33,724 bases of DNA from Granulosicoccaceae bacterium (lineage in GTDB: Bacteria; Pseudomonadota; Gammaproteobacteria; CALCKW01), in the NCBI GenBank assembly GCA_049607125.1, contig JBMYWE010000001.1, forward strand, positions 1 through 33,724, read 5' to 3'. The translations under genes and the position numbers were made by a program. Numbering within the stretch: the first letter of the stretch is position 1; each line of letters starts with the position of its first letter. Under the pieces are notes generated by a model, which was not told the DNA's origin, did not search any database, and worked only from the letters and a program-made list of their open reading frames with translations. Shown piece after piece: positions 1-7,602 of this stretch.

Positions 1-705
1 CTTGACCAGATGCAGGCACTCAGCGATCAGTACATTGGTAGTTTGCCGAAGTCTCAGCGCGAGTATCAGGCGCCGGGGCTGAAAGCTAGCGCCAAGCGCC
101 AGCGCATTGTGCATCGTGGTAACCAACCCACCCGTGCCGATATGTTCTTCTACTATGTGCAAAGTGCTTCCAATGAGCTAGAGCGTTTTGACGCCGAGTT
201 ACTGCTGATGCGCGAAGTGTTGGCTCAGCGTCTCTGGCATGTGCTGCGTGAGCGCGAGGGTTTGGGTTATGACGTCAGTTTGCAACTGCGACGACGCGCT
301 TTTCTACGAGGCGGCAGCAGCTTCACGGTTGGCATGGTGTGTGATCCAAATTATGCCCCCGAGGTGCGCCGCAGGGTAGATGAGGTGCTGCTGTCGCTGC
401 TGGTCAACGGGATAGACGAGCTGGAACTGGCGCCCCTGCGCAGCCGCTTGTCAGCGGACTACAGCGAGTTGTTGCGCGATAATGCGACGCTACTGGCGGA
501 GTGGGCCAACCAACGTGAGCGCGGGCGCAGCATAGCGCAAGTGCTGCACACGGTGGCCGAGATTGAAGCGGTTGACGCAAAGCGCTTACAACAGTATGCA
601 CGCTTGTTTTTTAAAGAGACCGGCTTTTTGGAAGTGAACGTGGTGCCAGGCTTGTCGGCTGATCTAGGCGCTGAACAAGCGGCCTTGGTGCAACCAACTC
701 GTTAA
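1..705 (+). CDS. Peptidase M16 (insulinase/pitrilysin)-like protein, C-terminal part; 5' end lies outside the window
   Basis: Frame 1 is open from base 1 (CTT GAC CAG ATG) to TAA at 703-705. The segment LREREGLGYDVS...GGSSFTVGMVCDP resembles the non-catalytic C-terminal half-domain of M16 peptidases. Confidence 0.55.
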   Translation, partial: LDQMQALSDQYIGSLPKSQREYQAPGLKASAKRQRIVHRGNQPTRADMFFYYVQSASNELERFDAELLLMREVLAQRLWHVLREREGLGYDVSLQLRRRAFLRGGSSFTVGMVCDPNYAPEVRRRVDEVLLSLLVNGIDELELAPLRSRLSADYSELLRDNATLLAEWANQRERGRSIAQVLHTVAEIEAVDAKRLQQYARLFFKETGFLEVNVVPGLSADLGAEQAALVQPTR

Positions 706-728
706 GGCTAATCGGGGGCGCTTAATTG

Positions 729-944
729 CTACTCCGTTTTTTGCGTATCAGGTTTCTTCTTTTCAGCTCGAACTAAACGCCAAACCAAAGCGAAGGGTGA
801 CAGCGCCATCACCAGTCCAATGCCGATCCAGATGCGTTTGTCGCTATAGTGCAAGGCCAACCACACCAGCCCCACAAGTGTGAGTGATGCCAAGGTCGCA
901 ATTAACACACCCGCGGTTGAGATTCCGCTTTGATGTTTCATCAA
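729..944 (-). CDS. Small membrane protein (two predicted TM helices), last gene of the receiver/sensor operon
   Basis: 71 aa with two hydrophobic stretches (GVLIATLASLTLVGLVWLAL and IWIGIGLVMALSPFALVW) and a Lys-rich tail. Its ATG overlaps the stop of the upstream sensor gene as ATGA (941-944). Confidence 0.6.
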   Translation of the reverse strand: MMKHQSGISTAGVLIATLASLTLVGLVWLALHYSDKRIWIGIGLVMALSPFALVWRLVRAEKKKPDTQKTE

Positions 945-2989
945 GCGCTTGCCTTTTGTTGTTCAGACAGCGCTTTTTGCAGTTTGGGCAGGCTGCGAAT
1001 GCCCTGAGAGTGTAGCCGGGTCAGCATGCGATTAAACACCCGGGCAATTAACTTAACCTGGTCGGTGGTGTCGTCTATGTCTGTCTCTATCCCCAGGCGG
1101 CTGGCAACGCGATACAGGCTATAGGTGGTGTCTTCAGGGAACAACAACGCAGCGATCGCAGCGGTGTCCAGCAAGCCCGCCTGTGAAATCAATTGCCTGT
1201 CAGCGGCTCCCAGCTGGCCCATAAGCAGATTGGCGTCGTGGGTGATAAAGGCACCGTTGCGGCTGAATTCGCTCAAGGCACTCGGGCCTTGCTCTTGTTG
1301 TTGTGGGCTAAGGGTTGAATGTTTGAGTTGTTTTTGCGCCAGCGCCTGGGGTTTTCCCCCTGCCAGAAGCAAGGCGACCAGGGTGCTCTCTGCACGGGCC
1401 ATATCAGCTGCCGATAGACGCTCGGAACCCACAGCGAGTACTGTGAAGTACTGGTGTTGTAATAATGGTTCTTTGTCGGATGCGGAAGTATCTGCTTTGG
1501 GACTAAAGTCAAACTTGCTGTTGGGTACTTCAAATTCGGCACCTGTTGGTGCCTCGCTCAAGGGCAGAGCAATCCGCAGGCGTTGCCCGTTTGATTTCGG
1601 ATCTTCTAACCATGCGCGGCCCGCGTGACGTTCTATCAATTCAACGAGCGCTCTTCCGCCGACAGCCACGCTCTGGCGAGTCGAAGTGGCCAGCGAACGA
1701 AAATCTTCTTGGCGCAGCACCCCCTCTCCCCAGTAGAGGTCGATCAGGAGCAGTCCGTGGCGCCTGTCGGTTTCTGCGTTCAATCCAAGTTTGTCCATTT
1801 CCCAGTCCGCCTGCAGAGCAGCCATGCAGTTGGCTATCGCTTTTGCAAGTGAAAAGCTATCGGCTTCTAGCCATAGACCGGCCTCGGGCACCGTGTCGAT
1901 TGGAGGCGCCATTTGATGTTGGCTGTGCAGCTGTTGTTGCACCGCACGCAGTAAATCGCGCGCGAGAATTGGCTCCAGCGGCCAGGTATGGGCCAGTTGG
2001 TCGGCTCGCTGGAAACTCAGGCGTTCGAGGTGGTCACAGTGGCGCGCGGTGTCGCGGCCTAGCGCGGTGAGTAGGCTGCGTTGATGGCGAGCCGCAGATG
2101 GGTCGCGCTGCAAGCTGTCGATACCGGTGCGCAGCCGGGTGAGCAAATTGCGGGTTTCGCGGTTGAGGCCGTGCAACAATTTATCGCGCTGATTGCCTTG
2201 GCTGTGCTGGGCTTCTATGTCGTCCAGTGCCAGTACAAAGCCTTCGATCTGGTCGTCTTCGGGATTCACAGCAGTGGCTAGGCGCACTCGCACCATGCGG
2301 CCATTGCGGCTCATGGCACTGAGTGTGGTGTGTGGTGCACGCGTCCCGCTTTGCAGTCTTTCGCGTACAATGGTCAATGCATGGGCAATCAGCTCGGCGT
2401 CCAATAGGGCAAAAATAGACTCTCCCAGCGCGCTCTGAGCAGCTTGGTGGTCTGTTGACTTTCCCAGCAAGCTGCGGGCTATGCCGTTGGCAAGGAGTAT
2501 TCGGCCCTCAAGGTTACAAACCATCACGCCTTGCGATATTTGATTGAGCAGGGCGGTGAGGCGAACCCGTTCGCGCGCGCGGGTAGCGGTGCTGTCGCTC
2601 AGTTCGCGGTCTAAGATGGAGCGGCGTTGCTGCACGCTGGCCATCAAGGCGTTGGTATTGCTCAGCAGTGTGTGCTCTTCGGGGCTGAGGTCGCTGTCTA
2701 GTGCCAGCGCCTGGCCGTCGGCTTCTAGCGCTTCGCGCAATCTTCGGTTGACGCGCGCTAGACTGTGCAGATGGCGTTGGTAGAAGCGGCCAAAAAACAA
2801 CACCGGTACCACCAGACCCACGCCTGCCAGAATCAGCATCAATGGCAAGCGTGGCTCCAGCACGTGCCGTAGCTGCTGTTTCTCAAAGGCGTTGAGATCT
2901 AGCCAGAGCATCAGTGATGGCAACAGCCCTACTAGGGCGATGGTCAACAGGGCACCGAGCAGAAGCTGTACCAATCGATTGTTTAGCAT
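941..2989 (-). CDS. Membrane sensor protein: 2 TM, linker, PAS-like domain, histidine-kinase-like core, and a C-terminal degenerate DnaQ/DEDD-exonuclease-like domain
   Basis: 682 aa. The N-terminus has two hydrophobic helices. PAS-like segment: ISQGVMVCNLEGRILLANGIARSLLG. Candidate H-box: KLLHGLNRETRNLLTRL. HATPase-like remnants: AKAIANCMAAL, DLYWGEGV, VGGRALVELIERHAGRAWLE...RLRIALPL. The tail has the layout of ExoI/II/III motifs (FTVLAVGSE, AFITHDANLL, LLDTAAIA...YSLYRVASRLGIE..DDTTDQVKLIARVF) but the acidic and His catalytic residues are replaced. Confidence 0.7.
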   Translation of the reverse strand: MLNNRLVQLLLGALLTIALVGLLPSLMLWLDLNAFEKQQLRHVLEPRLPLMLILAGVGLVVPVLFFGRFYQRHLHSLARVNRRLREALEADGQALALDSDLSPEEHTLLSNTNALMASVQQRRSILDRELSDSTATRARERVRLTALLNQISQGVMVCNLEGRILLANGIARSLLGKSTDHQAAQSALGESIFALLDAELIAHALTIVRERLQSGTRAPHTTLSAMSRNGRMVRVRLATAVNPEDDQIEGFVLALDDIEAQHSQGNQRDKLLHGLNRETRNLLTRLRTGIDSLQRDPSAARHQRSLLTALGRDTARHCDHLERLSFQRADQLAHTWPLEPILARDLLRAVQQQLHSQHQMAPPIDTVPEAGLWLEADSFSLAKAIANCMAALQADWEMDKLGLNAETDRRHGLLLIDLYWGEGVLRQEDFRSLATSTRQSVAVGGRALVELIERHAGRAWLEDPKSNGQRLRIALPLSEAPTGAEFEVPNSKFDFSPKADTSASDKEPLLQHQYFTVLAVGSERLSAADMARAESTLVALLLAGGKPQALAQKQLKHSTLSPQQQEQGPSALSEFSRNGAFITHDANLLMGQLGAADRQLISQAGLLDTAAIAALLFPEDTTYSLYRVASRLGIETDIDDTTDQVKLIARVFNRMLTRLHSQGIRSLPKLQKALSEQQKASA

Positions 2990-3345
2990 GTTGATGGGTC
3001 CAAGTGCTGTTGGATAGTCTGGAGTAGTGTGTCGGTAGCGAAGGGTTTGCGTAGCACGGCGTCTACCCCCTGTGCTTCAAGTTGGGCGGCGAGGCTTGCC
3101 TGCCAGTTACTGCTGAGATAGAGCAGGCGACAGGACGGCAGTCGTCGCTTGAGATGCTGGCACAGGTTTGCTGCTTCTTCCGCGTTGGCGTCATCTATCA
3201 GAATTAAACTGGGCTGAAGTTCAACGGACTGGCGCAATAGTTGACCCGTTTGGCTGGGGTGAGCGATCTCGTACTGATGCGCCAGGATGTTGGCCAGAGC
3301 TTGTGCAAGTACCAAGTCGTCCACGGCAAGTAGTATTTGAGTCAT
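2983..3345 (-). CDS. Single-domain CheY-like response regulator (receiver only)
   Basis: 120 aa with an acidic pair (AVDD), a phospho-acceptor context (LILIDD), YLSS, and a conserved Lys-Pro (LRKPF). There is no output domain. It overlaps the sensor gene start by 7 nt (ATGCTAA, 2983-2989). Confidence 0.85.
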   Translation of the reverse strand: MTQILLAVDDLVLAQALANILAHQYEIAHPSQTGQLLRQSVELQPSLILIDDANAEEAANLCQHLKRRLPSCRLLYLSSNWQASLAAQLEAQGVDAVLRKPFATDTLLQTIQQHLDPSTC

Positions 3346-3815
3346 ATATCGCTCTTGTCTCTACGCTTCAGTCTTGCTTTGCGCGACAAATTTGCGCTCT
3401 CAAATAGCAAGTCCTCACCCTTTGTGCATTTTCTCGAGCTCGGCGACTCGAAAGCGAGCCCTGAGCAATCTCTGTTGACTTCGAAAAACAATAGCTAACA
3501 TCCTGTTAAACAGACGAAAAACCTACACCTCGCGGGTGTGGACTCAGGTGTGTTCGCCAGCTGTTTAGTGTGCGACTAATCGCTCGCATCTGCAACAGCG
3601 AGATCGGAATTGGGCTGGGCATGGACGAGAAAGTTCCTCTGCGTTCTACTTTATTTGTCGATTGCACAATTAAATGACGGAACACTATGTAACTGTTTGG
3701 TTTTAGATGAGATTGTCGATAACTCTTACGGGGCATGGACTCGATCGCATCGTGACATTGAGCTTTTACCGCTCCATCCGGCGAGTGACAAAACAGACTT
3801 TCTGAGAGAAAAACA

Positions 3816-5030
3816 GTGATTTCAAATCGACGCAAATTCTTGCTTAAGTCAGCGGCTGGCTGCGCAACGCTGGGCAAGTATGGAGTTGCTTCAGGTCTGT
3901 TGAATATGAGTCTTAGCGAGAGAGCTGAGGCCCGGTGTGCCGACGCTTACAAAGCGTTGGTCTGTGTTTTTTTAGCAGGTGGCAATGACTCTTTTAATAT
4001 GCTGGCGCCGCTTAGCTCGAACGAGTACCGAGACTACGCCAGTGCACGCGCGCATTTGGCCTTGCCAAGCTCTGGTCCAGGTGCTCTATTGCCGGTCAGT
4101 CCCATCAACGCCGATGGACGCAGCTTCGGTATTCACCCCGGCATGCCCGAGTTGCAGGGATTATTTGACAGTGGTGCGGTAGACTTTTTTAGCAATGTGG
4201 GCACGCTGGTTGAGCCCACGACGCCGCAGCAGTTTAAGCGTGGCGCTACAGCTGTACCCGAGCAGTTGCTCGCGCACGCCGACCAGACTATGCAGTGGCA
4301 GACTTCAATGCCTCAGATGGGGGTGAGCAGTGGTTGGGCTGGACGTCTGGCTGATCTGTACCCGAGCGGCTCGGGCCCCGGCCGCTTGCCATCGATGCTT
4401 ATCTCTTTGAGTGGCCAGCCTGTTTTCATGCTGGGCAAGCACGCTAAGGCCCGCCCGCTCATGACGTCTATAGATTCGGCCACTCAGGATGAGGCGGGTA
4501 TTAGCTGTCGCTCGGATTTCCCCTCCACGGCACTTGGTTCTCAGCTCGAGACAATTGCGCGCACCATCGAGCATGGCCGCCGTCTTGGCTTGCGTCGGCA
4601 AGTGTTTTTTGTGCAGATGGCAGGCTGGGATCATCACCACGGGTTGCTACACAGGCAGTCTCAGATGCTGCCTGTTTTGAGTCAGGGTCTGGGTGCTTTT
4701 TGGGCCGCTTTGGGGAAACTCGGTTTGCAAGATAACGTCACCACTTTTACCGCCTCTGAATTCGGGCGCTCGCTGCATTCTCGTGCCAGCGGCTCTGAGC
4801 ACGGATGGGGCGGGAACCAGATTGTTATGGGAGGGGCCAGTGTGGGTAAAAGCTTGCACGGCGTATACCCCGAGACGCTGCGACTTGGCTCCGGCCAGGA
4901 CATCAGCGGTGCGGGTAGCTTGTTGCCCACGACCTCCACGGATCAATACTTTGCCCAGCTTCTGCGATGGTACGGGGTGAGCGACAGCGATCTGCAGGTT
5001 GTTTTGCCGAATTTGTCAAATTTCAGTTGA
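3816..5030 (+). CDS. DUF1501 family protein with a twin-arginine (Tat) signal peptide
   Basis: GTG start. The N-terminus SNRRKFLLKSAAGCATLG is Tat-like. Hallmark DUF1501 segments are present: ALVCVFLAGGNDSFNMLAP and SEFGRSLHSRASGSEHGWGGNQIVMGG. Confidence 0.85.
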   Translation: MISNRRKFLLKSAAGCATLGKYGVASGLLNMSLSERAEARCADAYKALVCVFLAGGNDSFNMLAPLSSNEYRDYASARAHLALPSSGPGALLPVSPINADGRSFGIHPGMPELQGLFDSGAVDFFSNVGTLVEPTTPQQFKRGATAVPEQLLAHADQTMQWQTSMPQMGVSSGWAGRLADLYPSGSGPGRLPSMLISLSGQPVFMLGKHAKARPLMTSIDSATQDEAGISCRSDFPSTALGSQLETIARTIEHGRRLGLRRQVFFVQMAGWDHHHGLLHRQSQMLPVLSQGLGAFWAALGKLGLQDNVTTFTASEFGRSLHSRASGSEHGWGGNQIVMGGASVGKSLHGVYPETLRLGSGQDISGAGSLLPTTSTDQYFAQLLRWYGVSDSDLQVVLPNLSNFS

Positions 5031-5037
5031 CGGGCTC

Positions 5038-6483
5038 TCAGCCAAAATAGCCGTGTAGATAAAACACGCCGGGCTGCCCTCGGCGCTCAAACACCCAATA
5101 GCGAAGCCCTTGCGCGTCGCGTGCGGTGTAGTAGTCTCGCCGTACATCTGGCTCTTCCCACCAGCCACTTTCCAGACGTTCGGGCCCTGATTCCAATCGC
5201 AGGTTATGCGGGGCGGGCCGAGGTTCGGGCAGTAACCACAGTGGTCGTGGCAGCGTCACTATGGGCACCTTTGTGGCGTTGCTGTTCTGGCCGAGTGGGA
5301 ACTCTTGCCCCGCGCACTCGGGGCGGTGATCATCGCGCAGGCCGAGCTGGAAGACACGTTGTTCGCCCAGTCGTGCCGCTATTTGTTCTAGCACTTCGCG
5401 GTGACCTCGATGCCCAGCGCCAGATTTGTCAAATAGGTCTGCGCCGTCTCGCACCACCGATAGCAGCTCGTCGGCGCTTAGTTGTAGAGCGCGCACGGGC
5501 TCGGGCAGTTGTAGCTGTTCAAGCTGCTGGCGCGCCACGCGCAGTAGCCGTGTGGCGTCGCCGCTGGGCTCTAGCAGTCGAACCGGCAGACGGGTGGGCT
5601 CTAGCCGCGGGTGTTGTAGCTCTAGCGCGATTTGCTTGACGCCGCAGTCTCGGGCAATCAGCTGTGCCGCCAGTGTCTCGATCAAGCGTCTTAGCGGAAA
5701 CACCAGAGAGGCGGTGTTCTCCACTTCTTGCAATAGTTCTAGGCGTTGCTCGAATCGTTCTGGTGGTTGGAAGGGTGGCTGTGGGTCGTCGGCCAAGCCG
5801 CGCAGTCGATCGAGGGTGTCACAGCAGCTGGGTCCAAAGCGTCGAGCAAGCGCATCGCGCGGCAGTTGTAGCAGTTGCCCGGTGCTGCGCAGCCCTGCTT
5901 GGCGCAGGCTTTGACGGGTTTTCTCGTCCAGTAGCAGAGCGTCGATCGGGGCTTCATTTAGGGCCACCTCAAGGGCGGTGCGATCGAGTAGATCGGGGCC
6001 TCTGAGTCTAGCCATCAAGCGCGCCGCCAGTGGTGTGGGTGCCACCCCGAGGCGGTGGCGGTAGCCGATCTCCTCGAGGCCCTGTTGCAGTTGCTCACGC
6101 AGGGCAGGCAAGCCTCCGAACAACCGCAGACTGGCGCCCACTTCTAGCAGTAGCGCGGCGGGTGGAGTTAGGCTGAGTTGTGAGGAGAAACGATAAGCCC
6201 AGAGCGCCAGCTGCTGCAACAGCTCGTGTTCGCGCTGTTCATCGTAGGCTTGTAATTGCAAGTCTGGTTGGAGTGCCATGGCGGTGGCCACTGGTTGCTG
6301 TGCTCGCACGCCAGCGGCGTGCGCCTCGCGGTTGGCGCTGTGGATCCAGCGCTGGCTGCCGTGGCTGGCCACCAGTGCCCGTGCCGGCTGCTCGCCAGCA
6401 TTGCAGGCCAAGCTGTCGAGCAGCAGGGCGGGCAGACCGATACACAGCCAGAGGGTTGCTGGGGCGTTGCTGTCAAGGCTCAT
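5038..6483 (-). CDS. imuB: ImuB, the Y-family-polymerase-like subunit of the SOS mutagenesis cassette
   Basis: 481 aa. The N-terminus TLWLCIGLPALLLDSL and the C-terminus LRYWVFERRGQPGVFYLHGYFG are typical of ImuB. It lies downstream of imuA and behind a LexA box. Confidence 0.85.
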   Translation of the reverse strand: MSLDSNAPATLWLCIGLPALLLDSLACNAGEQPARALVASHGSQRWIHSANREAHAAGVRAQQPVATAMALQPDLQLQAYDEQREHELLQQLALWAYRFSSQLSLTPPAALLLEVGASLRLFGGLPALREQLQQGLEEIGYRHRLGVAPTPLAARLMARLRGPDLLDRTALEVALNEAPIDALLLDEKTRQSLRQAGLRSTGQLLQLPRDALARRFGPSCCDTLDRLRGLADDPQPPFQPPERFEQRLELLQEVENTASLVFPLRRLIETLAAQLIARDCGVKQIALELQHPRLEPTRLPVRLLEPSGDATRLLRVARQQLEQLQLPEPVRALQLSADELLSVVRDGADLFDKSGAGHRGHREVLEQIAARLGEQRVFQLGLRDDHRPECAGQEFPLGQNSNATKVPIVTLPRPLWLLPEPRPAPHNLRLESGPERLESGWWEEPDVRRDYYTARDAQGLRYWVFERRGQPGVFYLHGYFG

Positions 6484-6896
6484 GGTCTATGCCCTGTCGG
6501 TTCAATGTGCTTGTTGGGTTTTTCATCAGGGCAAACGGAGCACCGACTGGGCCGTTGTTTGACTGCACGTCCCGGGTTGCTGTCCCGAACTGTGCGCTCT
6601 GAACTGCGCGTCCCGAACCGAAGTCGAGCCCACATAGAACACTGACCGAGGTTCGACTTTAGTCGAACAAAGTGTGCTGTCCGGCGGTGAAGACGTTCGA
6701 ATGAATTCGAACCCACAGTCAGAGTCTGTATCAGGCTTTGGTGGAGTGAGTGAGTGCGGCGTTTAACTGCCAGTGGCCTTTGTGGGTTCGATTTTAATTG
6801 GACAAAACATGCTGTCCGGCAGCCAGTACATTTGCAGGAATTCGAATCTACATAGAGCAATGCCAGACTGGGGGCTTGCAGGTACTCACCCGTCAC
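6480..6896 (-). CDS. Hypothetical very basic, Cys-containing repeat protein lying exactly between imuA and imuB (coding status unproven)
   Basis: 138 codons are open. The GTG start overlaps the imuA stop (GTGA, 6893-6896) and the TGA stop overlaps the imuB ATG (ATGA, 6480-6483). Two 26-residue internal repeats differ largely at synonymous codon positions. I recognise no family, and third-position GC is lower than in the neighbouring genes. Confidence 0.45.
   Translation of the reverse strand: MTGEYLQAPSLALLYVDSNSCKCTGCRTACFVQLKSNPQRPLAVKRRTHSLHQSLIQTLTVGSNSFERLHRRTAHFVRLKSNLGQCSMWARLRFGTRSSERTVRDSNPGRAVKQRPSRCSVCPDEKPNKHIEPTGHRP
6639..6716 (-). repeat. Repeat unit B of the imuA-imuB spacer (encodes VGSNSFERLHRRTAHFVRLKSNLGQC in the ORF frame)
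   Basis: The core at 6650-6685 (ggttcgactttagtcgaacaaagtgtgctgtccggc) matches 6785-6820 at 29 of 36 positions. It contains the hairpins GTTCGAC-TTTA-GTCGAAC (6651-6668) and GTTCGAAT-GA-ATTCGAAC (6695-6712). Confidence 0.8.
6774..6851 (-). repeat. Repeat unit A of the imuA-imuB spacer (encodes VDSNSCKCTGCRTACFVQLKSNPQRP in the ORF frame)
   Basis: The core at 6785-6820 (ggttcgattttaattggacaaaacatgctgtccggc) is a direct repeat of 6650-6685, offset by 135 nt (45 codons). Confidence 0.8.
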
Positions 6897-7570
6897 ACCA
6901 GCACCTCGTTGGCCGCGTGTGGCCAGTGGTGGGCGGGTGTATGAGCCGGTGGCGTGTCATCCTCGAGCTGTAACTGGCCGGGGTTACTACCACGACACTT
7001 GAGTACCTGCAATTGCTGTTGTCGCCACAGCAAACGCAGTGCGGCGGGTGAGGACTGCTCGGCGCTGTGTTCGGGGCGATAGGCCATTGCCCAACAGCCG
7101 CCGCCCGTCTCGGCAGCCAACTGCAGACGACGCAGTTGGGTGGGGGTGGCGCGCGGCAGCCACACCAGCACGACCGCAAAACTGCCGCTGCGCAGTAGTT
7201 GCTCGGCGGACCAGAGCGCGTCTTTGCCGTCTGGGCTGGCCTTGTCCTCGGGGCTGATCACCCACAGCTGTGACAATACGACTCCCGCCGCAGCCAGTGC
7301 CGGTGGGTAGGGCGGTGCTGGAGGGGCGACCAGCGCCACTCGTTCTCCGCGGGTTGTCTGCTGTGCCAGTGCGGGTGTGAGCAAGGACAGCTCGCCGCCG
7401 CCTAGCCCGGGGACATGCAATTCAGTCAGAGCGCCCAGCGGCCAACCACCACCGGGCAAAAAGGCGTCCAGCCGCGCCTGCCCGGTAGGTGCAGTGCGCT
7501 GAGCGACTGGGTGTTGATGGCCGCGCCACAGCAGTGGCTGGCCCTGAAGTAGTTGATCAAGTGAAGCCAT
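6893..7570 (-). CDS. imuA: ImuA (RecA/SulA-like protein of the SOS mutagenesis cassette)
   Basis: I place the start at the ATG at 7570-7568 (MASLDQLLQGQPLLWRG...). The segment LDAFLPGGGWPLGALTEL is the characteristic ImuA motif. The longer tracked ORF (to 7738) would read through the LexA box and promoter. Confidence 0.85.
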   Translation of the reverse strand: MASLDQLLQGQPLLWRGHQHPVAQRTAPTGQARLDAFLPGGGWPLGALTELHVPGLGGGELSLLTPALAQQTTRGERVALVAPPAPPYPPALAAAGVVLSQLWVISPEDKASPDGKDALWSAEQLLRSGSFAVVLVWLPRATPTQLRRLQLAAETGGGCWAMAYRPEHSAEQSSPAALRLLWRQQQLQVLKCRGSNPGQLQLEDDTPPAHTPAHHWPHAANEVLV

Positions 7571-7582
7571 ACACAGAGTATA

Positions 7583-7602
7583 TACTGTAAAAATAAACAG
7601 TA
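7583..7602. promoter_or_regulatory. LexA (SOS) operator in the imuA / GNAT divergent intergenic region
   Basis: TACTGTAAAAATAAACAGTA is a perfect CTGT-N8-ACAG palindrome with an AT-rich spacer. It ends 12 nt upstream of the imuA ATG. Confidence 0.85.

What the first reader, a model, noticed from the sequence alone, without database searches (positions are those of the whole stretch)
729..3345. Receiver, sensor and mini-membrane-protein operon whose sensor ends in a catalytically degenerate DnaQ-like exonuclease domain
Three overlapping minus-strand genes form this operon: a stand-alone CheY-like receiver (2983-3345), a 682-aa membrane sensor (941-2989) and a 71-aa two-TM protein (729-944).

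The sensor has two TM helices, a PAS-like module and a kinase-like core. The core has a plausible phospho-acceptor His (LLHGLNRETRNLL) but eroded ATP-lid G-boxes (DLYWGEGV, and GGRAL instead of GxGLG).

Its last ~175 residues (about nt 944-1477) follow the order and spacing of the three DEDD exonuclease motifs:
- ExoI position: FTVLAVGSE, where vvlDxETTG is expected, so Asp and Glu are replaced.
- ExoII position: AFITHDANLL, compared with HNAxFD.
- ExoIII position: LLDTAAIA...YSLYRVASRLGIE..DDTTDQVKLIARVF, where H-x4-D is expected.

An inactive exonuclease fold fused to a two-component sensor is not an architecture I know to be characterised. It could act as a nucleic-acid, nucleotide or protein-interaction module. 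The only receiver in the locus has no output domain, so the output of the pathway is unknown.
Basis: partly seen in the sequence, partly recalled or inferred. Interest (0 to 1): 0.62.

Follow-up and report, generated by a model that had tools for sequence, protein, structure and literature searches.

The report
Doubly dead kinase–exonuclease membrane sensor operon
A marine bacterium encodes a membrane signalling protein that keeps the folds of a histidine kinase and of a DnaQ-type exonuclease but has lost the catalytic residues of both, so it probably signals by binding partners rather than by catalysis; its relatives with an intact exonuclease form a large, unstudied family.

Summary
The three overlapping minus-strand genes are real: a receiver (2983-3345), a 682-aa membrane protein (941-2989) and a small two-helix membrane protein (729-941).

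The large protein reads 2 TM, HAMP-like coil, PAS, histidine-kinase-like core, DnaQ-like tail. The tail is a true homologue of DEDDh exonucleases. All five catalytic residues are gone, yet it is under purifying selection.

The canonical H-box position is Arg, in a strictly conserved RETRNLL motif. N, G1 and G2 boxes are also absent, so the core is a pseudokinase.

The protein is a lineage-specific (Granulosicoccaceae) derivative of a large uncharacterised family of ~710-aa proteins. Of 171 proteins examined, 158 keep DEDDh. These relatives usually sit after a single-domain receiver and before a DUF294 nucleotidyltransferase, in clusters with a transporter-like histidine kinase and an acetate-type symporter.

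The dead-tail clade has lost those neighbours. It lies instead beside SOS mutagenesis genes (imuA-imuB, lexA, dnaE2).

Most likely mechanism (inferred): a scaffold that docks, and perhaps dephosphorylates, its partner receiver and binds a partner through the dead tail.

Verdict: the finding is real, mostly correctly read and not described in the literature I could search. Interest is moderate to high.

The parts
2983..3345 (-). Single-domain CheY-like receiver, 120 aa, overlapping the sensor start by 7 nt.
   Evidence: PF00072 scores 31.2 bits against a cut-off of 30.2. The equivalents of CheY D57, T87 (Ser here) and K109-P110 are kept. The acidic pair is DD in the window but SD, GD or PD in close relatives. 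A ~122-aa receiver lies directly upstream of the sensor homologue in 62 of 78 evaluable loci.
2774..2989 (-). Sensor residues 1-72: two transmembrane helices joined by a loop of about 17 residues. There is no periplasmic sensor domain.
   Evidence: Model helices 2-29 and 48-89, plus the hydrophobic sequence itself. Identity within the clade is 67-83%.
2540..2773 (-). Sensor residues 73-150: HAMP-like helix-loop-helix and coiled coil.
   Evidence: Model helices 48-89 and 103-150 with a loop at 90-102. The active homologue P0016 has a sub-threshold Pfam HAMP hit at 79-118, 23.4 bits against a cut-off of 25.
2216..2539 (-). Sensor residues 151-258: PAS domain.
   Evidence: TIGR00229 scores 30 bits against a cut-off of 22.9. 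Five Pfam PAS models give E 2e-4 to 4e-3. The model shows a PAS fold.
1982..2215 (-). Sensor residues 259-336: DHp-like two-helix hairpin. The H-box reads R277-E-T-R-N-L-L, with His replaced by Arg. This is the most conserved domain.
   Evidence: The VicK alignment puts the phospho-acceptor His opposite R277. RETRNLL is invariant in all 12 clade members, while H273 is Gln in two of them. Identity within the clade is 72-88%.
1553..1981 (-). Sensor residues 337-479: CA-like (GHKL-like) alpha/beta domain without N, G1 or G2 boxes.
   Evidence: Alignment to VicK and the family consensus. There is no Pfam HATPase_c hit. Foldseek matches histidine kinases.
1457..1552 (-). Sensor residues 480-511: poorly conserved linker containing a conserved D-F motif (D494, F495).
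   Evidence: Low pLDDT at 486-506. Identity within the clade is 31-47%. D494 and F495 are invariant or nearly invariant across the family.
944..1456 (-). Sensor residues 512-682: DnaQ-like (DEDDh-derived) pseudo-exonuclease domain.
   Evidence: Profile-profile probability 96.6%, E 5.7e-10. Foldseek matches PolC exo (E 1e-5, TM 0.60), RNase T, epsilon and DinG exo. The catalytic signature is '--LDQ' against DEDHD. dN/dS is about 0.24, and identity is 58-67%, similar to the CA-like domain.
729..941 (-). Small protein with two transmembrane helices: 70 aa from the ATG at 941 (71 aa from the TTG at 944). Its start overlaps the sensor stop.
   Evidence: The ORF is and the TGATG junction. The protein is conserved (59-69% identity) directly after the sensor gene in L001, L004, L086, L088 and L090. 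It is absent where the sensor is 40% identical and in L085.
3346..3815 (.). Intergenic region upstream of the receiver, presumed to hold the operon's promoter.
   Evidence: No sigma-70 consensus match and no LexA box were found. In relatives this position is the imuB-receiver spacer.
5038..7600 (-). Context: LexA box (7585-7600), imuA (6893-7570) and imuB (5038-6483), the SOS mutagenesis genes that flank the module throughout the clade.
   Evidence: imuB hits PF00817. imuA is homologous to the L001 gene. CTGT-N8-ACAG occurs once in the window. Synteny is shown.

Best explanation
**What it is**

The operon encodes three products:
- a single-domain receiver;
- a membrane-anchored HAMP-like/PAS/pseudo-histidine-kinase/pseudo-exonuclease protein;
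- a small two-helix membrane protein.

The large protein belongs to a big uncharacterised family of ~710-aa 'PAS-pseudokinase-DEDDh exonuclease' proteins. It is a Granulosicoccaceae-specific derivative of that family.

**What is shown computationally**
- The kinase-like core lacks the phospho-acceptor His, which is Arg in a conserved R-E-T-R-N H-box. It also lacks all ATP-binding boxes, so it cannot autophosphorylate.
- The tail keeps the DnaQ fold but none of the five DEDDh residues, so it cannot act as a DEDD nuclease.
- Both domains are nevertheless under purifying selection.
- The receiver partner is inherited with the sensor across the family.
- In this clade the usual DUF294 nucleotidyltransferase, transporter-type kinase and acetate-type symporter neighbours are gone.

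**What is inferred**
- The protein works as a dimeric signalling scaffold.
- The DHp-like helices dock the partner receiver and read, or reset, its phosphorylation state. The retained Asn at His+4 is the residue that HisKA kinases need for phosphatase activity.
- Membrane, HAMP and PAS input, possibly modulated by the small membrane protein, would be relayed to the dead tail.
- The tail would then bind, rather than cleave, a nucleic-acid 3' end, a nucleotide or a protein partner.
- The kinase that phosphorylates the receiver is encoded elsewhere.
For: **Family membership and dead tail**
- Full-length hits to PF00929-bearing proteins, E 1e-48 to 1e-17.
- The alignment shows FDTETTGL, HNAAFDMRFL and GRHTALGDA in relatives, against FTV..LAVGSE, THDAN--LL and DDTT-DQ here.
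- 158 of 171 proteins have DEDHD. Only P0001-P0012 are degenerate.
- hhalign probability 96.6%.
- Foldseek matches to DnaQ-like folds.

**Pseudokinase**
- VicK alignment.
- Column counts: the His position holds E 89, R 19, D 15 and H only 5.
- No N, G1 or G2 box in the family consensus.
- RETRNLL is invariant in the clade.
- Asn/Thr at His+4 is required for HisKA phosphatase activity (PMC3510030).

**Selection**
- The DHp-like domain is the most conserved. The tail is about as conserved as the CA-like domain and much more than the linker.
- Tail dN/dS is about 0.24, and pN is 0.26-0.31 against pS 0.67-0.76.

**Partner receiver**
- Immediately upstream in 62 of 78 loci.
- Phospho-acceptor Asp, Ser/Thr and Lys-Pro are kept.

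**Loss of partners**
- A DUF294 gene lies directly downstream in 56 of 74 other loci and in 0 of 9 Granulosicoccaceae loci.
- The window holds no kinase, DUF294 or SSF gene.

**Precedent**
- The DivL pseudokinase reads the phosphorylation state of the single-domain regulator DivK (PMC4211667, abstract).
- NifL is a structural match, E 1.6e-10.
Against: - No binding, phosphatase or phosphorylation data exist.
- Docking of the receiver on the DHp-like helices was not modelled, because no multimer prediction was available.
- The receiver's acidic pair is eroded in close relatives (SD, GD, PD), so phosphorylation may not be the relevant signal in the clade.
- No ligand or partner of the dead tail is identified.
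- There is no clear transcript evidence. Only sparse contigs from one run of uncertain type cover the gene.
- The function of the intact exonuclease in the parent family is itself unknown (PMC9927547 and bioRxiv 10.64898/2026.09.07.749794 report unknown function for the related stand-alone pair).
Confidence: 0.6

Rival explanations
1. SOS-mutasome accessory. In Granulosicoccaceae the receiver and pseudo-exonuclease sensor have been recruited to the ImuA-ImuB-DnaE2 translesion system. The dead epsilon-like domain would bind DnaE2, ImuB, the beta clamp or a primer 3' end, and so gate or localise error-prone synthesis in response to a membrane or PAS signal.
For: **Synteny across the clade**
- imuA-imuB lies directly upstream in the same orientation in L001, L004, L006, L086/L087 and L088. 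In the window a DUF1501 gene is inserted between them.
- lexA lies directly upstream in L084.
- dnaE2 with its own LexA box lies directly downstream in L007, and just beyond the M16 peptidase gene in L006.
- This holds down to 40% sensor identity.

**Specificity**
- None of the 76 loci outside the family carries SOS genes.
- The change of context coincides with loss of the nuclease residues and of the DUF294 partner.
Against: - Synteny within one bacterial family may simply be inherited.
- LexA boxes lie only before imuA, lexA and dnaE2, never before the receiver.
- The spacers between imuB and the receiver are 200-375 nt long.
- In the window an opposite-strand gene separates the two units, and L085 lacks SOS neighbours.
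- The tail derives from a non-replicative exonuclease family linked to carbon-metabolism clusters.
- No clamp-binding or DnaE-binding motif was identified.
Confidence: 0.13
2. The protein is a working, if atypical, sensor kinase that autophosphorylates on H273 and phosphorylates the adjacent receiver. The tail is an accessory module.
For: - The overall fold is that of a histidine kinase.
- H273 lies one helical turn from the canonical position.
- The receiver has an intact phospho-acceptor Asp.
Against: - H273 is Gln in P0011 and P0012, and Gln or Arg in most of the family.
- There is no N-box Asn, G1 or G2 box.
- There is no Pfam HisKA or HATPase_c hit.
Confidence: 0.06
3. Dedicated phosphatase or sink. 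The pseudokinase is catalytic only as a phosphatase for the receiver, through the E278/N281 H-box remnant. The tail is a structural remnant with no binding role.
For: - RETRN keeps the HisKA acidic residue at His+1 and the Asn at His+4.
- Asn/Thr at His+4 is required specifically for phosphatase activity (PMC3510030).
- The DHp-like domain is the most conserved.
Against: - The tail is under purifying selection comparable to the CA-like domain, which argues for a role of its own.
- Whether HisKA phosphatase activity survives a His-to-Arg change here is untested.
Confidence: 0.15
4. Decaying relic. The gene is a non-functional remnant on its way to loss.
For: - Every catalytic function is lost.
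- One relative (L006) has the gene split into two ORFs.
Against: - The full-length ORF is intact in 12 distinct protein clusters.
- dN/dS is well below 1 in every domain.
- The operon structure and the small downstream gene are conserved.
Confidence: 0.04

Closest known systems
WalK/VicK-type HAMP-PAS-DHp-CA sensor histidine kinases (PDB 4i5s, 9a5d)
   Same: Same order of TM, HAMP-like, PAS, DHp and CA-like domains. These are the best sequence and fold matches for residues ~136-478.
   Different: No phospho-acceptor His and no N, G1 or G2 box. An extra C-terminal DnaQ-like domain. No Pfam HisKA or HATPase_c hit.
DivL of Caulobacter (pseudo-histidine kinase, reverse signalling) and NifL
   Same: Kinase-fold proteins that have lost kinase chemistry. 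They act by binding a partner: DivL binds the single-domain regulator DivK~P (PMC4211667), and NifL binds NifA (Foldseek 9qq6). Here too the partner is a single-domain receiver.
   Different: No sequence-level orthology. DivL has Tyr at the His position, this protein has Arg. DivL keeps an ATP-binding domain. Neither DivL nor NifL carries an exonuclease-like domain. Binding was not tested here.
DEDDh (DnaQ-like, PF00929) exonucleases: Pol III epsilon, PolC exonuclease domain, RNase T, DinG exonuclease domain
   Same: Same fold and the same order of motif-bearing segments. Relatives in the same protein family have strong PF00929 hits, E 1e-32 to 1e-35.
   Different: None of the D, E, D, H, D residues is present. 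The window protein has no PF00929 hit at E<=1.
The uncharacterised ~710-aa PAS-pseudokinase-DEDDh exonuclease family (e.g. Dechloromonas agitata L017 6968-9136). NCBI calls one member 'exonuclease domain-containing protein' and JGI calls others 'DNA polymerase-3 subunit epsilon'.
   Same: Homologous over the full length. Same domain order. The His is lost family-wide. A receiver gene lies immediately upstream.
   Different: Those proteins keep DEDDh. They are followed by a DUF294 nucleotidyltransferase and sit with an SSF-type kinase and an acetate-type symporter. The window protein has none of these.
PP_0354/PP_0353 of Pseudomonas putida (cNMP-CBS-DUF294 nucleotidyltransferase plus RNase_T-like exonuclease, targets of MxtR/ErdR = CrbS/CrbR)
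   Same: The parent family sits in clusters that also contain this pair (L017: 661-aa cNMP-CBS-DUF294, then a 221-aa exonuclease, then SSF). It is itself paired with a second DUF294 gene.
   Different: The stand-alone exonuclease is only distantly related to the sensor's tail, E 1e-6 to 1e-11. Its function is also unknown (PMC9927547; bioRxiv 10.64898/2026.09.07.749794). Nothing of this pair is present in the window.
Catalytically inactive exonuclease-like domains in A-family polymerases (Pol nu 4xvk, Pol theta 8efc, mycobacterial Pol I 6vdd)
   Same: They appear among the Foldseek matches of the tail. From general knowledge, they are examples of a DnaQ-like fold kept as a structural module without nuclease activity.
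   Different: They are fused to a polymerase, not to a signalling protein. The similarity is weaker than to PolC or RNase T.

Membership tests
Sensor histidine kinase (HisKA + HATPase_c) | Phospho-acceptor His at the H-box of DHp helix 1 | tested here: not met
   The VicK His aligns with R277. This column is Arg in all 12 clade members. Across 171 family proteins it is E, R, D, A or Q, with His in only 5.
Sensor histidine kinase (HisKA + HATPase_c) | ATP-binding N, G1 and G2 boxes in the CA domain | tested here: not met
   AIANCMAALQ, DLYWGEGV and GGRAL stand in place of N..NA, DxGxG and GxGxG. The family consensus also lacks them.
Sensor histidine kinase (HisKA + HATPase_c) | DHp four-helix-bundle and CA alpha/beta fold | tested here: met
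   Model secondary structure. Foldseek E 1e-19 to 1e-7 to WalK, VicK, YF1, HK853 and CpxA.
Sensor histidine kinase (HisKA + HATPase_c) | Pfam HisKA or HATPase_c above the gathering score | tested here: not met
   No hit at E<=1.
DEDDh / DnaQ-like exonuclease (PF00929) | RNase H-like DnaQ fold | tested here: met
   Tail model pLDDT 82. Foldseek matches PolC, RNase T, epsilon and DinG exo, probability 1.0, TM 0.48-0.60. hhalign probability 96.6%.
DEDDh / DnaQ-like exonuclease (PF00929) | ExoI Asp and Glu (D-x-E) | tested here: not met
   These residues are either deleted or replaced within FTVLAVGSE. There is no D-x-E in residues 505-545.
DEDDh / DnaQ-like exonuclease (PF00929) | ExoII Asp (HNAxFD) | tested here: not met
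   THDAN--LL. The column holds Leu, or Thr in P0012.
DEDDh / DnaQ-like exonuclease (PF00929) | ExoIII His-x4-Asp | tested here: not met
   DDTT-DQ. His is replaced by D, N, T, S or E, and Asp by Q or I.
PAS-pseudokinase-DEDDh exonuclease family (unnamed) | Full-length homology with the same domain order | tested here: met
   E 6.5e-48 at 98% coverage to P0013. Clade members P0011 and P0012 are among the top 150 profile hits.
PAS-pseudokinase-DEDDh exonuclease family (unnamed) | Single-domain receiver gene immediately upstream | tested here: met
   Window gene 2983-3345 overlaps the sensor start. The same holds in 62 of 78 loci.
PAS-pseudokinase-DEDDh exonuclease family (unnamed) | DUF294 nucleotidyltransferase gene immediately downstream or in the cluster | tested here: not met
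   0 of 9 Granulosicoccaceae loci against 56 of 74 others. There is none in the 33.7-kb window.
PAS-pseudokinase-DEDDh exonuclease family (unnamed) | Intact DEDDh active site | tested here: not met
CheY-like receiver (PF00072) | Pfam score above the cut-off, and phospho-acceptor Asp, Thr/Ser and Lys present | tested here: met
   31.2 bits against 30.2. The D57, T87 (Ser) and K109-P110 equivalents are present.
CheY-like receiver (PF00072) | Acidic Mg-binding pair (D12, D13) | tested here: inconclusive
   The window has VDD, which fits the pair after a one-residue shift of the MAFFT alignment. Relatives have SD, GD or PD.
DivL-type reverse-signalling pseudokinase (functional analogy) | Binds its single-domain regulator according to the regulator's phosphorylation state | not testable with these tools
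   This needs binding assays or a multimer prediction. The only support here is the conserved gene pairing and the conserved H-box remnant.

The most novel reading that the evidence does not exclude
In Granulosicoccaceae, a signalling protein whose kinase and exonuclease domains are both catalytically dead has been recruited, with its receiver, into the imuA-imuB-dnaE2 SOS mutagenesis cassette. Its epsilon-like pseudo-exonuclease domain would act as a signal-controlled, membrane-anchored binding partner of the mutasome (DnaE2, ImuB, the clamp or a primer end). This would make damage-induced mutagenesis conditional on an environmental or membrane cue. More broadly, the parent family would define a new two-component output: a receiver-controlled exonuclease working against a DUF294 nucleotidyltransferase.
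Probability: 0.12. Interest if true: 0.8.

Novelty: new variant of a known kind. Interest (0 to 1): 0.57.

Why it matters
- **Pseudoenzyme retention.** Two different enzymes in one polypeptide have both lost catalysis, yet both are kept under purifying selection. This is a useful natural case for studying how signalling scaffolds evolve from enzymes.
- **An unstudied family.** It draws attention to a large, widespread and unstudied family: a pseudokinase fused to a live DEDDh exonuclease, paired with a receiver and a DUF294 nucleotidyltransferase. That family lies in the same acetate and short-chain-acid clusters whose DUF294-exonuclease pair (PP_0354/PP_0353) is strongly regulated by MxtR/ErdR but has no known function. 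Comparing live and dead versions could show what the exonuclease binds.
- **A testable SOS link.** The tight, lineage-wide linkage of the dead version to imuAB, lexA and dnaE2 gives a concrete, if low-probability, lead to a regulator of SOS mutagenesis.

Tried and rejected
- **Chance resemblance of the tail to DnaQ.** Rejected. See full-length homology to PF00929 proteins, hhalign at 96.6% and Foldseek.
- **H273 as phospho-acceptor.** Rejected.
- **The sensor's tail replaces the PP_0353-type exonuclease next to DUF294.** Rejected. Dechloromonas and Azonexus loci carry both, plus two DUF294 genes.
- **Anti-phage defence system.** No PADLOC hit for any of the three window proteins.
- **SOS regulation of the operon.** There is no LexA box upstream of the receiver in the window or in relatives. 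Read-through from imuAB is impossible in the window because of the opposite-strand DUF1501 gene.
- **Promoter and terminator scan of 600-3900.** No sigma-70 match. The terminator-like hits are uninformative.
- **Transcript evidence.** Only one run of uncertain type, with a few low-depth contigs on the sensor gene. Not usable.
- **Literature searches.** I searched for DUF294/exonuclease/acetate, pseudokinase/exonuclease/PAS, RNase_T/PAS/DEDDh, CrbS/exonuclease and DUF294 alone. None describes this architecture. The DUF294 hits were a word-start artefact (DUF2946).
- **The search for related loci with the full 15-sequence alignment.** It failed because the alignment was too diverse. A reduced alignment worked.
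- **dS is close to saturation**, so the dN/dS values are rough.

Full report
**1. The observation**

Three minus-strand ORFs are present exactly as described:
- a 120-aa protein at 2983-3345;
- a 682-aa protein at 941-2989;
- a 71-aa ORF at 729-944.

The first two overlap by 7 nt. The sensor stop and the small gene's start overlap. The junction reads GCT TGA TG, so the likely start is the ATG at 941 in a TGATG overlap, as in the relative L001.

The 120-aa protein passes the Pfam receiver model narrowly, at 31.2 bits against a cut-off of 30.2.

**2. Anatomy of the 682-aa protein**

An AlphaFold2 model built on 15 homologues (mean pLDDT 75) gives this layout:
- two N-terminal membrane helices (2-29 and 48-~70) joined by a ~17-residue loop;
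- a helix-loop-helix and coiled coil up to residue 150;
- a PAS fold at 154-257;
- two long helices at 258-335;
- an alpha/beta domain at 339-478;
- a disordered linker;
- a beta-beta-beta-alpha-beta-alpha domain at 514-681.

PAS is supported by TIGR00229 above its cut-off and by several near-threshold Pfam PAS models.

The middle part is homologous to WalK/VicK-type kinases. phmmer to 4i5s gives E 3e-8 over residues 136-478. Foldseek gives E 1e-19 to 2e-15.

**3. The kinase-like core is a pseudokinase**

- In the VicK alignment the phospho-acceptor His of SHELRTPL lies opposite R277 of N-R-E-T-R-N-L-L.
It is Gln in P0011 and P0012 of the same clade. Across 171 family proteins that column holds Q 53, R 38 and H 21.
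- The canonical His column holds E 89, R 19, D 15, A 11, Q 9 and H only 5, one of which is an ordinary kinase.
- N, G1 and G2 boxes are missing, both here and in the consensus of 76 relatives.
- Pfam HisKA and HATPase_c give no hit.
- The H-box remnant RETRNLL is invariant in all 12 clade members. It keeps the acidic residue at His+1 and the Asn at His+4. In HisKA kinases, Asn/Thr at His+4 is the residue required for phosphatase but not kinase activity (PMC3510030).
- The DHp-like domain is the most conserved part of the protein, at 72-88% identity within the clade.

**4. The tail is a dead DnaQ-like domain**

*Homology*
- Alone, the sequence gives only a weak PolC exonuclease-domain hit, E 1.5e-5.
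- The protein is homologous over its full length to ~710-aa proteins with strong PF00929 domains (E 1e-32 to 1e-35).
- In the alignment those proteins show FDTETTGL, HNAAFDMRFL and GRHTALGDA. The window protein shows FTV..LAVGSE, THDAN--LL and DDTT-DQ.
- A profile of the dead tails matches a profile of the active tails with probability 96.6% and E 5.7e-10 over 178 columns.
- A tail-only model (pLDDT 82, pTM 0.79) matches the PolC exonuclease domain (E 1e-5, TM 0.60), RNase T, Pol III epsilon and the DinG exonuclease domain.

*Loss of the active site*
- All five catalytic positions are lost. The signature is '--LDQ' here against DEDHD.
- The N-terminal half of the tail aligns ambiguously. One alignment deletes the ExoI loop. 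Another keeps the first three strands, with substitutions at FTVLAVGSE and a ~22-residue deletion after strand 3. The second agrees better with the model. No D-x-E is available either way.

*The tail is not decaying*
- Its identity within the clade (58-67%) equals that of the CA-like domain (57-69%) and exceeds that of the linker (31-47%).
- Non-synonymous divergence is 0.26-0.31 against synonymous 0.67-0.76.
- dN/dS is about 0.24 against L004, although dS is close to saturation.

**5. The family**

- A profile search of 1.84 billion cluster representatives found 2,026 proteins at E<=1e-30. The best 150 (all E<=5e-178) are nearly all full-length at ~700-740 aa, with a few shorter entries covering only part of the profile.
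- Of 171 proteins in hand, 158 keep DEDHD. The 12 that do not are exactly the window's clade. The remaining one is a plain kinase without the tail.
- In a scan of one genome per species, the window's clade was found only in four Granulosicoccaceae MAGs, at 60%, 65%, 40% and 39% identity. The live-exonuclease proteins among the best 80 loci came mostly from Rhodocyclaceae, including Dechloromonas, Azonexus and Accumulibacter.
- The window sequence occurs in seawater, alga and biofilm metagenomes.
- No curated Pfam or NCBIfam model covers the family. Source names are generic: 'exonuclease domain-containing protein' and 'DNA polymerase-3 subunit epsilon'.
- I found no paper describing it.

**6. 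Conserved partners in the family**

- A ~122-aa stand-alone receiver lies immediately upstream in 62 of 78 evaluable loci. The exceptions are mainly Accumulibacter, where the gene is followed by a phosphofructokinase instead.
- In Rhodocyclaceae the receiver has all canonical residues.
- It is preceded by a ~905-920-aa genuine HisKA/HATPase_c kinase whose long N-terminal membrane part resembles SSF transporters. This was found in 60 loci.
- A DUF294 nucleotidyltransferase gene starts right after the sensor-exonuclease gene in 56 of 74 evaluable loci.

The order in Dechloromonas agitata (L017) is:
1. kinase
2. receiver
3. sensor-exonuclease
4. DUF294-only protein (359 aa, overlapping the preceding stop)
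5. cNMP-CBS-DUF294 protein (661 aa)
6. 221-aa exonuclease (identified through a weak match, E 4e-6, to the family's exonuclease-domain profile; no Pfam hit)
7. SSF symporter

The soil contig L002 carries DUF485 and an ActP-like symporter.

Genes 5 and 6 correspond in architecture to Pseudomonas putida PP_0354/PP_0353. [quoted passage not shown]

So the parent family belongs to a recurrent pairing of a nucleotidyltransferase with an exonuclease, in which sensory domains are attached to one partner or the other.

**7. What changed in the window's clade**

*Lost*
- None of the kinase, DUF294 or symporter genes occurs in the 33.7-kb window.
- None occurs next to the gene in nine Granulosicoccaceae loci.

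*Retained or gained*
- The receiver is retained. It keeps the phospho-acceptor Asp, Ser/Thr and Lys-Pro. Its acidic pair is DD in the window but SD, GD or PD in relatives.
- A small two-helix membrane protein follows the sensor in the subclade with at least ~60% identity: the window, L001, L004, L086, L088 and L090. It is absent in L085 and in the 40% subclade.

*New neighbours: SOS mutagenesis genes*

| Locus | Arrangement |
|---|---|
| L001, L004, L006, L086/L087, L088 | imuA-imuB directly upstream, same orientation |
| Window | the same, with an opposite-strand DUF1501 gene (3816-5030) between imuB and the receiver |
| L084 | lexA directly upstream |
| L007 | dnaE2 directly downstream |
| L006 | dnaE2 just beyond the convergent M16 peptidase gene |
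| L085 | a divergent MASE1 kinase upstream instead of SOS genes |

- LexA boxes precede imuA, lexA and dnaE2, but never the receiver.
- No SOS gene lies near the gene in 76 loci outside the family.

**8. Most likely mechanism**

*Shown by computation*
- There is no kinase chemistry and no DEDD nuclease chemistry.
- Both domains are under purifying selection.
- The receiver is a conserved partner.
- The H-box remnant is strictly conserved.
- The nucleotidyltransferase partner has been lost.

*Inferred*
- The protein is a dimeric scaffold.
- Its DHp-like helices dock the receiver and sense, or possibly reset through N281, its phosphorylation state. This parallels the way the pseudokinase DivL reads DivK~P (PMC4211667).
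- Its tail binds, rather than cleaves, a partner.
- The small membrane protein may modulate the transmembrane part. That is inferred from translational coupling only.
- The receiver's kinase is encoded elsewhere.

I give about 0.9 to the identity statement and about 0.4 to the docking-scaffold mechanism, and 0.6 for the explanation as a whole. Rivals are listed separately. The most interesting is a role with the ImuAB-DnaE2 mutasome, at about 0.13.

**9. Novelty and verdict**

Kinase-fold pseudoenzymes and inactive exonuclease-like domains are both known. Their fusion is not described anywhere I could search, and neither are the receiver pairing and the lineage-specific death of the nuclease with a switch of genomic context.

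I rate it a new variant of known kinds. It is of moderate to high interest, mainly as an entry point to a large unstudied family and as a possible link to SOS mutagenesis.

Noticed in passing
window 6484-6892: About 409 nt separate imuA (6893-7570) from imuB (5038-6483), whereas the two genes overlap in the relative L001. The spacer holds two 68-nt direct repeats (6650-6717 and 6785-6852, 74% identical) and a 23-nt inverted repeat built around GGTTCGAAT-like cores. It looks like a small repeat or MITE-like insertion inside the SOS operon.
   Followed up: partly
window 7585-7600: The only perfect CTGT-N8-ACAG in the window (TACTGTTTATTTTTACAGTA on the gene strand) lies 15 nt upstream of the imuA start. 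It is a typical LexA box. Equivalent boxes precede imuA, lexA or dnaE2 in L004, L086, L084, L007 and L006.
   Followed up: yes
window 3816-5030 (+): A DUF1501 gene with a twin-arginine-like N-terminus (RRKFLL) lies on the opposite strand between imuB and the receiver. This is seen only in the window. In L001, L004, L086 and L088 imuB is followed directly by the receiver.
   Followed up: partly
L006 1571-3646: In this Granulosicoccaceae MAG the sensor homologue is split into two ORFs (1571-3043 and 3083-3646). This is either a real disruption or an assembly error.
   Followed up: no
L007 2738-6229; L006 6614-7142: dnaE2 (a 1042-aa ORF starting MQYAELHCHSPFSF) with its own LexA box follows the dead-tail sensor directly in L007. 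In L006 it follows the convergent M16 peptidase gene. In the 40% subclade the receiver-sensor pair therefore sits between imuB and dnaE2.
   Followed up: partly
L017 3798-14900 (Dechloromonas agitata): Two DUF294 nucleotidyltransferase genes and two DnaQ-like exonuclease genes lie in one cluster. Sensory domains are attached to the exonuclease in one pair (TM-PAS-pseudokinase) and to the transferase in the other (cNMP-CBS). This pattern suggests opposing add and remove activities on a common substrate.
   Followed up: partly
L057 6926-11551 (Candidatus Accumulibacter phosphatis): In Accumulibacter the live-exonuclease family member has no upstream receiver and no DUF294 neighbour. It is followed by an 803-aa tandem phosphofructokinase.
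   Followed up: partly
L085 5645-7666 (-): In one 61%-identical relative a MASE1/HATPase_c kinase is transcribed divergently from the receiver-sensor pair, in place of imuAB. It is a candidate cognate kinase for the receiver in that genome.
   Followed up: no
window 10-705 (+) and relatives: An M16-family peptidase gene (~905-954 aa in relatives; only its C-terminal part lies in the window) converges on the operon in every Granulosicoccaceae locus examined except L007. It is the most constant neighbour of the module.
   Followed up: no
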